Source: Escherichia coli (lineage in GTDB: Bacteria > Pseudomonadota > Gammaproteobacteria > Enterobacterales > Enterobacteriaceae). From it: DNA of 64,000 nt. Position numbers: made by a program. Location of the stretch: the NCBI RefSeq assembly GCF_030384885.1, contig NZ_CP128613.1. The stretch is one strand, 5' to 3'. Below are positions 18,401-21,400 of the stretch, one piece after another; positions within the stretch are counted from its first letter, which is position 1, and every line of letters begins with the position of its first letter.

Positions 18401-21400
18401 CACTGCATGATGATGGTGCGCTGTTTGTCATCCAGCTGTACGCTGGCGGCATCGACCTTTTTCTGCGCGACAATCAGCTCGTTTTTCAGTTTCTGATTTT
18501 CTTCTTTTAACCCGTTGATCACGCTGTCGCTCTGCGCCACTTTTTGCTGCATTTCTGCGGTGCGCTGATTCCAGGTGTTATCGATATTGGTGAGCTTATC
18601 GGTCAGGGTTTTGACCTGATTTTCCAGATCTGGCACACGGGAGCGCAGGCTTGGCTCTGTGCTAAGTTGTTTCAACGGGATCCAGGCGGTACGGCCAGAG
18701 CTGTCTTTCACCTGGGCATAATTGGTGTTGGCATCAGTTTGTAATAAGGTCACTTCCTCGCCGGCGTTAACCGTGCCCACGAGGCGATAATGGTCTCCCG
18801 GACCGCTACGGACCCAGGTATTCAGTTCGTCGGAAACATAGCGCGTTTCTTCAGCGTGTGAGACGGCAGTCGCGCTAAGTGCGAGTAAAGTTAATCCGAT
18901 CAGGCGTAATTTTGGCATCAGGCTGTCGTTATTGTCATGGAAAGTGGAACGATAGTAGTGGCATCAGTGTCGCTACGCAAAGCATTCGACATCAATCGGA
19001 ATCCTCTGTGTCAGGTCTTGCCACTGCTTCAAACTTTTACGCCCGTCAAATTGCCCGTTGCATGGCAATTTGGCGCAAAATACTATCTACTGACAAAAAA
19101 GATCGCATTAAGTTCGCCGTTCATCGTCACTTATGTGACATAACCGATAAGTAAAGGCTTTGACATCCTCCCCCACCTTCGCGCAAAGCGACTCAGGAGG
19201 GGGATTCCCTTGTCAGGGTAGCAATACGTTGCCGCATTGCCCGGTTCCTCGCTCGACGGCTTACGCCGCCTTACGGGCGCGTCCTTTACGGACTGACGGC
19301 AATATTTGTCCTGCCGCCATGACTTCAAAACCTGCTGTTAATATATTTCGAGCGCCGTTTACATCGGCGTTTGCCGTATAGCCGCACGCGGTACAGATAA
19401 AGCTCGCCTGCGCCCTGCGGTTAATTTTCGATGTATGCCCACAACATGCGCATTTCTGACTGGTGTACGCCGGATTAATCGCCAGCACATCACCGCCGCG
19501 CCATGCCTGCTTATATTCGAGCTGGCGGCGCATTTCTGCCCAGCCCTGATCCAGTATCGCTCGGTTAAGACCTGATTTTGCCGCGACGTTGCGCCCCGGC
19601 TGGTCTACCGTACCCGCTGCTGATTTTGACATGTTCGAAACCTTTAAATCCTCAATGACTATCATCGCGTGGTTTTTGCTGATCGTCGTCGTGGTTTTAT
19701 GAAGGTAATCGCGGCGGATGTTTGCGATATGAGAGTGGAAACGGGAAATCTTCGCTTTCTGCTTTTTCCAGTTGGCGGAGAATTTAACCTTCCGGGCCAG
19801 ATGGCGCTGTAAGCGAGCCAGCTTATCCTGATTTTTTTTAAAGCTGTTTACCGGTTCAAAGATCGTGCCGTCTGAAAGTGTTGCCAGCTTCGTTATACCT
19901 GCATCCAGGCCTATTGCGCTGGTCGATGCGTGAATCGGATCGGTAACAGCTAATTCGACCTGAAAAGACACATACCAGTGTCCGGCATGCTGGCTGATGG
20001 TGCAATTTTTAATGACGCCTTCAATCTTCCGGGACTGACGAAATTTAACCCAGCCCAGTCCTGACGGGAGTTTCACACGGCCATAATCCAGCCCACAATA
20101 TTTGCTGAAATTGACGAACCGGATAGAGTCGCAGCCTTTGGTTTTCTTTTTGAAAACGGGCTTTTCAGCCGTCAGGGATTTATCAAAACAGCGATCCCAT
20201 GCGCTCCGCAGGTCTTTCAGTTTCTGCTGGAGGTTGTCAGTGTAACCCTCAGCAAGAAAGGCCAGCTCAGGGAGTTTTTTCCAGCCCGTAAGTCGTTTAT
20301 TCAGGTCGAAAGCTGACGGAATTTTTCCGCCCGCGTCATGAATGCTCAGTGTTTCATTCAGTGCATAGTTCCAGACAAAGCGAGCGCAACCGCACAACTG
20401 ACGCAACCTTTGCGCCTGCTGGTCAGTGGGGTAGAGCCTGTATTTATATGCTTTCTGGATTAACATTTTGCATTCAGTATGTGGTTATTTAGAATGTACA
20501 ATATATCCACATTTTTTTGGGAGGATCAATACGTGTGCGAAATCAATCGTTCACGCTATTCAGCTTACCTGTTGCATGTTCACGTTGTTTTTATGACAAA
20601 ATACCGCCGTCCAGTTTTTGGTGAATTGCATCATGCAAACATGCGTCAGTATGTAGCGGAGGTATGCGCGGACTTTGGCGCCGAGTTAAAGGAATGTGAC
20701 GGCGAGGCAGATCATGTTCACATGCTGATTGAATACCCACCGTTGGTGCAACTCACAAAGCTGGTAAACAGCCTTAAGTCCGTTACCAGTAGGCGGCTGC
20801 GGAATGATTTTATTGATTTGCGCGCCGCGTATTCAAAGCCCGTACTCTGGTCACGCTCTTATTTCATCGGTTCATGTGGTGGAGCACCGCTGGAAGTTGT
20901 GAAAAAGTATATTCAGAATCAGCGTGGCTGATAAACTGCGGGCTTAACAGCCCAAATTCCCCTCCCGCCTACGTTGGGGGGGAGTACCCAGTGGAGGAAG
21001 GATGGCTCAGGAAATCGAATTAAAGTTTATTGTTAATCACAGTGCCGTTGAGGCGTTGCGTGACCATCTCAATACGCTGGGCGGCGAGCACCATGACCCC
21101 GTGCAGTTGCTGAATATTTACTACGAAACGCCGGATAACTGGTTGCGTGAACACGATATGGGCTTACGTATTCGTGGCGAAAACGGCCGCTATGAGATGA
21201 CCATGAAAGTCGCTGGAAGAGTGACTGGCGGTTTACACCAGCGCCCGGAATATAACGTGGCGTTGAGCGAACCGACGCTCGACCTGGCGCAGTTACCGAC
21301 GGAAGTCTGGCCGAACGGCGAATTGCCTGCCGATCTCGCTTCCCGCGTACAACCGCTGTTCAGCACCGATTTTTATCGCGAAAAGTGGCTGGTGGAACTC

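What the first reader, a model, noticed from the sequence alone, without database searches (positions are those of the whole stretch)
19120..19330. Candidate omega-RNA (reRNA) region at the 3' end of tnpB
In IS200/IS605 elements the guide RNA for TnpB is transcribed from the 3' end of tnpB into the right end of the element. The segment just downstream of the tnpB stop (minus strand) contains imperfect palindromes (cctccccc…ggaggggg at 19165-19210; gtcacttatgtgac at 19123-19136) consistent with a structured RNA scaffold and element end.
Basis: inference. Interest (0 to 1): 0.4.

Follow-up and report, generated by a model that had tools for sequence, protein, structure and literature searches.

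The report
Guide-RNA region of insertion sequence ISEc41
The flagged stretch is the right end of the known E. coli insertion sequence ISEc41, and comparison with about 50 related elements shows it very probably encodes the structured guide RNA (omega-RNA) of the element's TnpB nuclease: an expected, ordinary feature of this transposon family, not yet shown experimentally for this element.

Summary
The window is E. coli chromosome carrying one ISEc41 (IS200/IS605 family) between ygiM and ygiF. Comparison with the empty K-12 site and with CFT073 fixes the element at 19160-21001 (1842 bp, no target duplication), inserted 3' of CCAT and ending in TCAA on the minus strand. These are the cleavage sites published for ISEc41.

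About 50 related elements share a conserved block on the tnpB-sense strand. It ends in an invariant GGAGGATGTCAA, and all similarity stops exactly there.

A covariance model built without the window sequence finds 19160-19329 (-) at 163 bits, with no other credible hit in 64 kb. The helices are 97% paired against 40-55% for slid controls, with compensatory changes. Synonymous sites freeze in the last ~20 tnpB codons. TnpB keeps its D-E-D catalytic residues and zinc finger.

The omega-RNA reading is therefore supported, with two corrections:
- The palindrome GTCACTTATGTGAC lies at 19126-19139, is native K-12 DNA outside the element, and lies beyond a 20-nt guide.
- The CCTCCCCC/GGAGGGGG palindrome is also the hairpin that the TnpA transposase recognises at the right end.

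No Rfam family matches, and transcription was not tested. Verdict: a new member of a known kind, of low interest.

The parts
19160..19329 (-). Core omega-RNA scaffold (170 nt): runs from inside the tnpB reading frame to the last base of the element
   Evidence: Covariance model R1, built from 11 relatives without the window sequence, matches full length at 163.5 bits, E = 1.4e-44, and no other hit in 64 kb scores above 9.2 bits. Helices are 97.6% paired against 40-52% when slid.
19330..19347 (-). Possible 5' extension. AAUAUAUU (19340-19347) corresponds to the conserved AAUAUU that can pair with GGAUGU next to the guide in relatives. 19318-19338 is a lineage-specific 21-nt insertion or partial duplication.
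   Evidence: Long-range helix in the RNAalifold consensus: it varies on one side only, and the window copy has 1-2 mismatches. The insertion shows in alignments A1 and A2 and in the TnpB C-terminal tails.
19140..19159 (-). Predicted guide, 16-20 nt of flanking DNA: 5'-AGCCUUUACUUAUCGG(UUAU)-3'
   Evidence: Similarity among all relatives stops right after ...GGAGGATGTCAA. This stretch is K-12 native sequence. Position 19159 is T here and C in K-12 and CFT073. The guide length is taken by analogy with ISDra2 (PMC8612924).
19170..19203 (-).
   Evidence: Inverted repeat; DNA fold z = -3.1; compensatory changes in the stem across relatives.
19160..19163 (-). TCAA, the right-end cleavage site and last four bases of the element
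   Evidence: Boundary from the empty site and CFT073. Invariant in about 50 relatives. Published for ISEc41 (PMC9956272 Table S1).
19207..19241 (-). Two hairpins in the non-coding part: GGCAAUGCG-GCAA-CGUAUUGCU (19220-19241) and CCCU-GACA-AGGG (19207-19218)
   Evidence: In the first hairpin one pair shows U-A, U-G and C-G in different relatives. In the second, one pair is C-G in 6 sequences and U-A in 6.
19247..19277 (-). Helix CCCGU/GCG(A)GG enclosing hairpin GGCGGC-GUAA-GCCGUC. The tnpB stop codon (19261-19263) lies in the GUAA loop. Followed by the conserved motif GGAACC.
   Evidence: pair 77/107 changes C-G to U-A in L047; 100% of cells paired. Coordinates.
19281..19318 (-). Two hairpins inside the tnpB reading frame: GGCGGCA...UGCCGUC (19295-19318), whose loop holds GACA (19307-19310), and GUCC-GUAAA-GGAC (19281-19293)
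   Evidence: The family-wide hairpin GCGGCR/YGCCGY has 12 G-C to A-U double changes at synonymous sites. The second hairpin changes U-A to C-G in L047 and is absent in L048 and L049. All 54 unique sequences have a purine at the Gly third position in the loop.
19261..20466 (-). tnpB (401 aa), the nuclease the RNA would guide
   Evidence: Pfam HTH_OrfB_IS605, OrfB_IS605 and Cas12f1-like_TNB. Aligns with ISDra2 TnpB 8h1j/8exa at E = 7e-49, with D188, E272 and D368 matching its D191, E278 and D361.
20479..20931 (+). tnpA (Y1/HUH transposase), divergent from tnpB; the real start is probably GTG at 20533 (132 aa)
   Evidence: Pfam Y1_Tnp, E = 1.4e-39. Relatives' TnpA is 132 aa. GGGAGGA lies upstream of the GTG.
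20943..21001 (-). Left end with its subterminal hairpin region (CTCCCCCC...GGCGGGAG, followed by GGGGAAT)
   Evidence: Boundary from the empty site; left-end homology with relatives.
21002..21005 (-). CCAT, the target or transposon-adjacent motif (TAM) immediately 5' of the left end; on the + strand it reads ATGG, the ygiF start codon plus G
   Evidence: The K-12 empty site reads AAGGCC|ATGG on the + strand. Of 13 independent insertions, 10 have CCAT, 1 CTAT and 2 CCAC. CCAT is published as the ISEc41 left-end cleavage site.

Best explanation
The region is the right end of ISEc41, and it does two jobs on the same (minus, tnpB-sense) strand.

1. As single-stranded DNA, the subterminal hairpin (19170-19203), the GAAT 5' of it and the terminal TCAA form the substrate that the Y1 transposase TnpA cuts during peel-and-paste transposition.

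2. As RNA, roughly 19329 (perhaps 19347) down to 19160 is the scaffold of the TnpB omega-RNA. Transcription is most likely of the tnpB mRNA itself, which is then trimmed at the 5' end. It runs across the element boundary, so the next 16-20 nt of host DNA (19159 down to about 19140, AGCCUUUACUUAUCGG...) become the guide.

If TnpA excises the element, the rejoined donor site reads CCAT|GGCCTTTACTTATCGG, that is, TAM plus guide match. TnpB-omega-RNA would cut that site, and repair from the sister chromosome would put the element back.

Shown here: the boundaries; the conservation that stops at the boundary; the conserved, covarying, strand-specific structure; the constraint on synonymous sites; an intact nuclease; and the CCAT and TCAA sites. 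Inferred by analogy with ISDra2: transcription, processing, TnpB binding, guide length, use of CCAT as TAM by TnpB, and the homing outcome.
For: Identity and boundaries:
- The window is 100% identical to E. coli 2013C-4282, where the genes are annotated as ISEc41-family tnpA and an RNA-guided endonuclease TnpB.
- The K-12 empty site and CFT073 give exact ends at 19160 and 21001, with no target duplication.
- PMC9956272 Table S1 lists ISEc41 with TnpA 150 aa, TnpB 401 aa, left-end site CCAT and right-end site TCAA.

Conservation:
- All related elements end in an invariant GGAGGATGTCAA and are unrelated beyond it.
- A model built without the window finds 19160-19329 (-) at 163.5 bits. It also finds the tnpB-sense strand at the 3' end of tnpB in 38 places in other loci, each ending at the element boundary.

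Structure:
- 33-sequence family alignment: 96.8% of cells paired against 46-55% when slid, 13 pairs with changes on both sides, 0 of 500 shuffles as good.
- 13-sequence close subgroup: 97.6% against 40-52%, 8 such pairs.
- Many conserved G-U pairs tie the structure to this strand.
- Single-sequence RNA fold z = -5.0.

Coding overlap:
- The fraction of identical codons at identical residues rises from 0.45-0.55 along tnpB to 0.82-0.86 in the last ~20 codons, while amino-acid identity there falls to 0.44-0.50.
- ISDra2 behaves the same way: its disordered C-terminal tail overlaps the omega-RNA (PMC10097598).

Nuclease: TnpB aligns with ISDra2 TnpB at E = 7e-49 and keeps D188, E272, D368 and two CxxC pairs.
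Against: - No transcript, processing or RNP data exist for this element. No promoter-like site was found inside the 3' half of tnpB, so expression depends on the tnpB promoter.
- No Rfam family matches, even at E <= 10.
- The last hairpin and the invariant 3' tail are also required by TnpA at the DNA level, so their conservation alone does not prove an RNA role.
- Single-stranded top-strand DNA could in principle form the same helices.
- In the window copy the conserved 5' strand AAUAUU reads AAUAUAUU, which weakens the long-range helix seen in relatives, and a 21-nt insertion precedes the first hairpin.
- The element appears at a single fixed site in 147 of 5426 genomes, so current activity is uncertain.
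- The consensus structures were derived from the same alignments on which the pairs were counted.
Confidence: 0.8

Rival explanations
1. DNA-only right end. The conserved block is just the TnpA substrate (hairpin, GAAT guide tetranucleotide, TCAA) plus ordinary protein-coding conservation of the tnpB 3' end. No functional RNA is made.
For: TCAA and CCAT are TnpA cleavage sites. The invariant 3' tail is explained by TnpA alone.
Against: Conservation and covariation reach 170 nt from the end, through four to five further helices that TnpA is not known to need. Inside the reading frame it is the synonymous sites that are frozen while the amino acids vary. This is the opposite of protein-level constraint. 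The paired nuclease is intact and homologous to a TnpB shown to use such an RNA.
Confidence: 0.07
2. Relic. The region descends from an omega-RNA gene but is no longer functional in this E. coli lineage. The element is a fixed, immobile passenger whose left end now serves ygiF expression.
For: One copy at one site in 147 of 5426 genomes. The window copy has mismatches in the conserved 5' pairing strand, and a C.C mismatch in the left-end hairpin where relatives pair perfectly. ST73-type copies carry a change at 19239 that breaks a pair. 63-bp remnants exist at the same site.
Against: tnpA, tnpB and all core helices are intact, and copies are 99.3-100% identical. The window copy scores 163 bits against the model of its relatives with only two non-standard pairs flagged, both in the variable second hairpin (19281-19293). 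A homing nuclease is expected to keep an element at one site.
Confidence: 0.2
3. 3' untranslated structure of tnpB: an intrinsic terminator or mRNA-stabilising hairpin, or a barrier that limits read-through into the co-directional ygiM.
For: A strong GC-rich hairpin lies 60-100 nt after the stop codon, on the sense strand.
Against: No U-run follows the hairpin, and the terminator scan found nothing there. A terminator would not explain helices inside the reading frame or conservation that ends to the base at the transposon boundary.
Confidence: 0.03

Closest known systems
ISDra2 (Deinococcus radiodurans) TnpB reRNA/omega-RNA (Karvelis 2021, PMC8612924; Nakagawa 2023, PMC10097598)
   Same: The RNA comes from the 3' end of tnpB plus the right end, with its last ~16 nt from flanking DNA. 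The right end finishes in TCAA. The TAM equals the TnpA target. The variable C-terminal tail of TnpB overlaps the RNA. The terminal stem-loop sits next to the guide; in the Yersinia-type relatives its loop is UUUA, and stem 4 of ISDra2 has a UUUA tetraloop. The nucleotides just 5' of the guide can pair with a 5'-proximal segment. The proteins align at E = 7e-49 with the catalytic triad conserved.
   Different: The TAM is CCAT rather than TTGAT. tnpA and tnpB are divergent rather than co-directional and overlapping. The conserved scaffold is about 170 nt, against 116 nt, with an extra domain (19247-19293). Which 5' segment forms the pseudoknot is unresolved. There is no experimental evidence for ISEc41.
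ISEc41 as catalogued (ISfinder name used in RefSeq annotation; PMC9956272 Table S1)
   Same: Same element: TnpB 401 aa, annotated TnpA 150 aa, 1845-1846 bp with the CCAT counted, left-end site CCAT, right-end site TCAA, one copy per genome.
   Different: That survey predicted only the end hairpins. It remarked that conserved right-end motifs 'may function as RNA guides'. It gave no scaffold boundaries, structure or guide.
IS608 of Helicobacter pylori (prototype IS200/IS605 mechanism; from general knowledge of Barabas et al. 2008)
   Same: Insertion 3' of a tetranucleotide without duplication. Right end finishing in TCAA, with GAAT 5' of the right-end hairpin. Subterminal imperfect hairpins at both ends. 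Y1 HUH transposase.
   Different: The target is TTAC, not CCAT, and the genes are co-directional. The IS608 details are recalled, not tested here.
Cas12f sgRNA (tracrRNA:crRNA)
   Same: A long structured scaffold 5' of a 3' guide, bound by a small RuvC nuclease related to TnpB (PDB hits 7l48, 7c7l, 9nzq).
   Different: Encoded by a CRISPR locus with acquired spacers. Here the guide is fixed by the insertion site.

Membership tests
TnpB omega-RNA / reRNA of IS200/IS605 elements | Encoded on the tnpB-sense strand, overlapping the 3' end of tnpB and running to the right-end boundary | tested here: met
   tnpB stop at 19261-19263, element end at 19160; the model hit 19160-19329 is on the minus strand only.
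TnpB omega-RNA / reRNA of IS200/IS605 elements | Scaffold conserved among related elements, with sequence diverging exactly at the transposon boundary (guide taken from the flank) | tested here: met
   About 50 relatives end in GGAGGATGTCAA, and the next 20 nt are unrelated between insertions.
TnpB omega-RNA / reRNA of IS200/IS605 elements | Conserved secondary structure supported by covariation | tested here: met
   96.8% and 97.6% of cells paired against 40-55% when slid; 13 and 8 pairs with changes on both sides; 0 of 500 shuffles reach the covariation score. Caveat: the structures were derived from the same alignments.
TnpB omega-RNA / reRNA of IS200/IS605 elements | Nucleotide-level constraint on the overlapping tnpB codons beyond what the protein needs | tested here: met
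   Identical-codon fraction is 0.82-0.86 in the last ~20 codons against 0.45-0.55 elsewhere, with low amino-acid identity there.
TnpB omega-RNA / reRNA of IS200/IS605 elements | Cognate TnpB with an intact RuvC D-E-D triad and zinc finger | tested here: met
   Three Pfam domains. D188, E272 and D368 align with D191, E278 and D361 of ISDra2 TnpB; CxxC at 339 and 358.
TnpB omega-RNA / reRNA of IS200/IS605 elements | The left-end flank (TAM) plus the right-end flank recreate a TAM-plus-guide target at the empty donor site | tested here: met
   On the minus strand the K-12 site reads CCAT|GGCCTTTACTTATCGG. CCAT or CCAY flanks 13 independent insertions and is published for ISEc41. That TnpB itself reads CCAT is an inference.
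TnpB omega-RNA / reRNA of IS200/IS605 elements | The RNA is transcribed, processed and bound by TnpB, and directs DNA cleavage | not testable with these tools
   No expression or biochemical data were available. Literature searches found no study of ISEc41 RNA.
TnpB omega-RNA / reRNA of IS200/IS605 elements | Pseudoknot between the nucleotides just 5' of the guide and a 5'-proximal segment (as in ISDra2, PMC10097598) | tested here: inconclusive
   Two candidate partners exist for the 3' GGAUGUC. One is AAUAUU at the 5' edge (one-sided changes only). The other is G(A/G)CA in the first hairpin loop (purine in 54 of 54 sequences). The 3' strand is invariant, so no covariation is possible.
Any curated Rfam RNA family | Match to a covariance model at or near its gathering score | tested here: not met
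   No matches at E <= 10 over 18500-21500 on either strand.
IS200/IS605 right end (TnpA substrate) | Subterminal imperfect hairpin a few bases from the end, terminal cleavage tetranucleotide, insertion without target duplication, Y1 HUH transposase in the element | tested here: met
   Hairpin at 19170-19203, which starts 10 nt from the end. TCAA end and exact empty site. Y1_Tnp, E = 1.4e-39.
Intrinsic (Rho-independent) terminator | GC-rich hairpin directly followed by a U-run | tested here: not met
   The terminator scan found no site at 19160-19260. The hairpin is followed by AGGAUGUCAAAGCC.

The most novel reading that the evidence does not exclude
The ISEc41 lineage may carry a scaffold variant created by an in-frame 21-nt partial duplication of the first stem (19318-19338). 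The duplication also recodes the TnpB C-terminal tail. Relatives read ...NILAAGHAVLSG..., whereas the window reads ...NILTAGFEVMAAGQ... and the 86%-identical relative P0002 reads ...NILAAGHRIMAAGQ.... The new segment supplies a strand (UUGAAGUC) complementary to the 3' GAUGUCAA next to the guide. If that pairing is used, ISEc41 would show an omega-RNA re-wiring its guide-adjacent helix or pseudoknot through a duplication that the overlapping protein tolerates. Separately, the element may be held at this single site because its left-end tip now provides the ygiF ribosome-binding site.
Probability: 0.2. Interest if true: 0.35.

Novelty: new member of a known kind. Interest (0 to 1): 0.2.

Why it matters
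It matters little for biology in general, because every TnpB-bearing IS200/IS605 element is now expected to encode such an RNA. Three practical gains follow.
- The ISEc41 omega-RNA now has exact coordinates, a structure model supported by covariation, a predicted guide, and CCAT as the probable TAM. This element sits in much-used strains such as CFT073, Nissle 1917 and ATCC 25922. A C-rich TAM that is not T-rich would be unusual among the characterised TnpBs that I recall.
- The Enterobacterales family assembled here matches no Rfam family, so it could seed a covariance model.
- Anyone engineering Nissle 1917 should know that it may carry an active RNA-guided nuclease aimed at the ygiM-ygiF junction.

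Tried and rejected
- The Rfam scan at E <= 10 found nothing.
- The promoter and terminator consensus scan found no internal promoter for the RNA and no terminator at the hairpin. It did find plausible divergent tnpA and tnpB promoters at 20467-20529.
- I first placed the element end at 19159, because K-12 shows a single C there. CFT073 showed that 19159 is flank carrying a C-to-T SNP in this strain.
- The many 50-nt 'right-end-only' matches on plasmids looked like solo ends, but the one checked (H118) is the end of a diverged, related full element (same place as hit H33, in NZ_CP018106), so I dropped them.
- MAFFT misaligned the 5' half of the window copy against the wider family. I solved this by fetching closer relatives through the protein search and re-aligning.
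- My first ORF-start patterns missed most relatives, and I relaxed them for the codon analysis.
- I considered reading the palindrome at 19126-19139 as a CRP-like site and rejected it by eye, because the half-sites are in the wrong order. This was not tested further.
- Literature searches for ISEc41 or E. coli TnpB RNA found only resistance-survey mentions and the six-species TnpB survey.
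Full report
WHAT THE LOCUS IS

The window is E. coli chromosome. Bases 18850-21050 are 100% identical to strain 2013C-4282. The gene order is cca - ygiM - [tnpB (-), tnpA (+)] - ygiF - glnE. RefSeq annotates the two inserted genes as an 'RNA-guided endonuclease InsQ/TnpB family protein' and an 'IS200/IS605-like element ISEc41 family transposase'. Pfam agrees: the 401-aa protein has HTH_OrfB_IS605, OrfB_IS605 and Cas12f1-like_TNB, and the other has Y1_Tnp. Only 147 of 5426 complete E. coli genomes carry the insertion, always at this site. Carriers include CFT073, Nissle 1917 and ATCC 25922.

BOUNDARIES

K-12 has the empty site. Aligned with the window, the shared sequence stops at 19158/19159 on one side and resumes at 21002 on the other. 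K-12 reads ...AAGGCC|ATGGCT... and CFT073, which carries the element, reads ...AAGGCC|TTGACATCC.... So 19159 is flanking DNA with a C-to-T SNP in this strain.

The element is exactly 19160-21001, which is 1842 bp with no target duplication. On the minus strand (tnpB-sense) it lies 3' of CCAT and ends in TCAA. A published survey lists ISEc41 with TnpA 150 aa, TnpB 401 aa, 1845-1846 bp, left-end cleavage site CCAT and right-end cleavage site TCAA (PMC9956272 Table S1). My independent derivation agrees with it. Of 13 independent insertions of related elements, 10 have CCAT, 1 has CTAT and 2 have CCAC immediately 5' of the left end.

CHECKING THE OBSERVATION

The palindrome cctccccc...ggaggggg is real. 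Its arms are at 19169-19178 and 19195-19204. It begins 10 nt from the end of the element and folds better than shuffled sequence (z = -3.1 as DNA).

It is weak (z = -1.9). It is present in the IS-free K-12 site, so it is native intergenic DNA, and it lies beyond even a 20-nt guide. It is not part of the element.

The whole minus-strand stretch 19139-19400 folds as RNA at -110 kcal/mol, z = -5.0.

COMPARATIVE EVIDENCE FOR AN RNA

I collected relatives from three sources:
- 36 loci from species-representative genomes;
- plasmid copies from Klebsiella, E. coli and Aeromonas;
- nine loci (eight of them distinct) for closer relatives, found through a protein search.

From the catalytic NADxNGA motif onward, every element ends in an invariant GGAGGATGTCAA. 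Beyond it the sequences are unrelated. That is the signature expected if the scaffold belongs to the element and the guide is read from whatever DNA lies next to it.

RNAalifold on 33 sequences gives a multi-helix structure. Counted on that alignment, 96.8% of cells are paired against 46-55% when the 3' partners are slid. Thirteen pairs change on both sides, and 0 of 500 shuffles do as well. The hairpin GCGGCR/YGCCGY lies inside the reading frame. It shows 12 G-C to A-U double changes made entirely at synonymous third positions.

The window copy belongs to a subgroup with a different middle domain. A 13-sequence alignment of that subgroup gives 97.6% paired against 40-52% when slid, with 8 pairs changed on both sides. 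Examples:
- CCCGU/GCG(A)GG goes from C-G to U-A in the 86%-identical relative L047.
- GUCC/GGAC goes from U-A to C-G.
- CCCU/AGGG is C-G in six sequences and U-A in six.
- One pair in the GGCAAUGCG hairpin shows U-A, U-G and C-G in different relatives.

Many invariant G-U pairs tie the fold to the tnpB-sense strand.

A covariance model built from the 11 relatives, with the window and CFT073 left out, finds 19160-19329 on the minus strand, full length, at 163.5 bits and E = 1.4e-44. The next best hit in the 64 kb scores 9 bits. In the other loci the model hits 38 places, all on the tnpB-sense strand and all ending at the element boundary.

CODING OVERLAP

Across 19 non-redundant tnpB genes I measured how often identical amino acids are encoded by identical codons. 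The fraction is 0.45-0.55 along most of the gene and 0.82-0.86 in the last ~20 codons, where amino-acid identity is only 0.44-0.50. By eye in alignment A1, the freeze starts at the AAT ATT TTA GCG codons.

The C-terminal tails differ sharply between lineages while the nucleotides stay pairable. The tnpB stop codon sits in the GUAA loop of a hairpin. ISDra2 shows the same arrangement: its disordered TnpB tail overlaps the omega-RNA (PMC10097598).

THE NUCLEASE

TnpB aligns with ISDra2 TnpB (8h1j, 8exa) at E = 7e-49 over residues 2-379. D188, E272 and D368 sit opposite its D191, E278 and D361, and two CxxC pairs are present.

MECHANISM

What is shown:
- the anatomy and exact boundaries;
- conservation that stops at the boundary;
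- a covarying, strand-specific structure;
- constraint on synonymous sites;
- an intact nuclease and an intact transposase;
- the CCAT and TCAA sites.

What is inferred from ISDra2 (PMC8612924; PMC10097598):
- The tnpB transcript is trimmed to a scaffold of about 170-190 nt that reads 16-20 nt into the flank (5'-AGCCUUUACUUAUCGG...).
- TnpB binds this RNA.
- After TnpA excision, the donor joint CCAT|GGCCTTTACTTATCGG is cut.
- Recombination with the sister copy restores the element.

The terminal hairpin, the GAAT before it and the TCAA serve TnpA at the DNA level, so the right end has two roles.

The nucleotides next to the guide (GGAUGUC) can pair with either of two segments. One is the conserved AAUAUU at the 5' edge. 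The other is G(A/G)CA in the first hairpin loop, where the Gly codon is always GGG or GGA (54 of 54 sequences). Which one forms the ISDra2-like pseudoknot cannot be decided, because the 3' strand never varies.

In the window copy AAUAUU reads AAUAUAUU, and a lineage-specific 21-nt insertion supplies an alternative partner, UUGAAGUC.

RIVALS

- DNA-only right end plus protein constraint. This fails to explain four or five covarying helices beyond the TnpA hairpin, or synonymous freezing where the amino acids vary.
- Terminator. This is excluded because no U-run follows the hairpin.
- Inactive relic. This cannot be excluded. The element has a single fixed site, mismatches in the 5' pairing strand and in the left-end hairpin, and a pair-breaking change at 19239 in ST73-type copies.

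COMPARISON AND NOVELTY

This is the omega-RNA/reRNA arrangement first shown for ISDra2, in the catalogued element ISEc41. The differences from ISDra2 are a CCAT rather than TTGAT target, divergent genes, a longer scaffold with an extra domain, and no experimental data.

No Rfam family matches. The only paper found that treats ISEc41 structurally predicted just the end hairpins and remarked that right-end motifs 'may function as RNA guides'. I therefore class this as a new member of a known kind, of low interest.

Noticed in passing
window 20975-21005: ISEc41 is inserted exactly between the ygiF ribosome-binding site and its ATG (K-12: AAGGCC|ATGG). The tip of the left end now supplies GGAGGAAGG directly upstream of the ygiF start at 21002. 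tnpA runs in the same direction as ygiF and ends 70 nt upstream, so ygiF expression in carrier strains probably depends on the element.
   Followed up: partly
window 20467-20535: The annotated tnpA start (ATG at 20479, 150 aa) is probably too far upstream. GTG at 20533, preceded by GGGAGGA, gives 132 aa, the length of TnpA in relatives. Promoter-like sites at 20467-20495 (+) and 20529-20500 (-) fit back-to-back tnpA and tnpB promoters.
   Followed up: partly
L046 1501-1563 (E. coli ERP001; hit H124 in strain 82.0312 matches the same 45 nt of the right end): At the same ygiM-ygiF site ERP001 carries only a 63-bp remnant. It consists of 45 nt of the right end fused to the last 18 nt of the left end, apparently by a deletion between the two similar G/C-rich hairpin arms. 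The result is a miniature element with both ends and no genes. A second strain (82.0312, hit H124) matches the same 45 nt of the right end but was not examined.
   Followed up: partly
window 19126-19139: The palindrome GTCACTTATGTGAC is native ygiM-ygiF intergenic DNA, also present in K-12. It could be a regulator-binding site in the divergent promoter region. Its half-sites are in the wrong order for CRP.
   Followed up: no
window 19159 and 19239: 19159 (first guide position) is T in this strain and C in K-12 and CFT073. At 19239 this strain keeps the ancestral base, while CFT073-type copies carry a change that turns a C-G pair of the 19220-19241 hairpin into G.G.
   Followed up: partly
window 20950-20990 (minus strand): In this copy the left-end hairpin is CTCCCCCC/GGCGGGAG, with a C.C mismatch. 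Relatives have perfect stems such as CTCCCGCC/GGCGGGAG or CTCCCACC/GGTGGGAG, and the window's DNA fold is no better than shuffles (z = -0.6). This may reflect reduced mobility.
   Followed up: partly
window about 19650-19720 (tnpB codons 249-273): There is a second, smaller rise in synonymous-site conservation (0.64-0.69 against about 0.5) around the catalytic E272 region of tnpB. The cause is unknown: codon bias, an internal promoter or another RNA element.
   Followed up: no
L043 4063-5126; L039, L042, L044: On large Klebsiella and E. coli plasmids, related tnpB elements occur two or three per region. In L043 a truncated copy lies about 900 bp from a CRISPR array with a type IV csf2 gene.
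   Followed up: no
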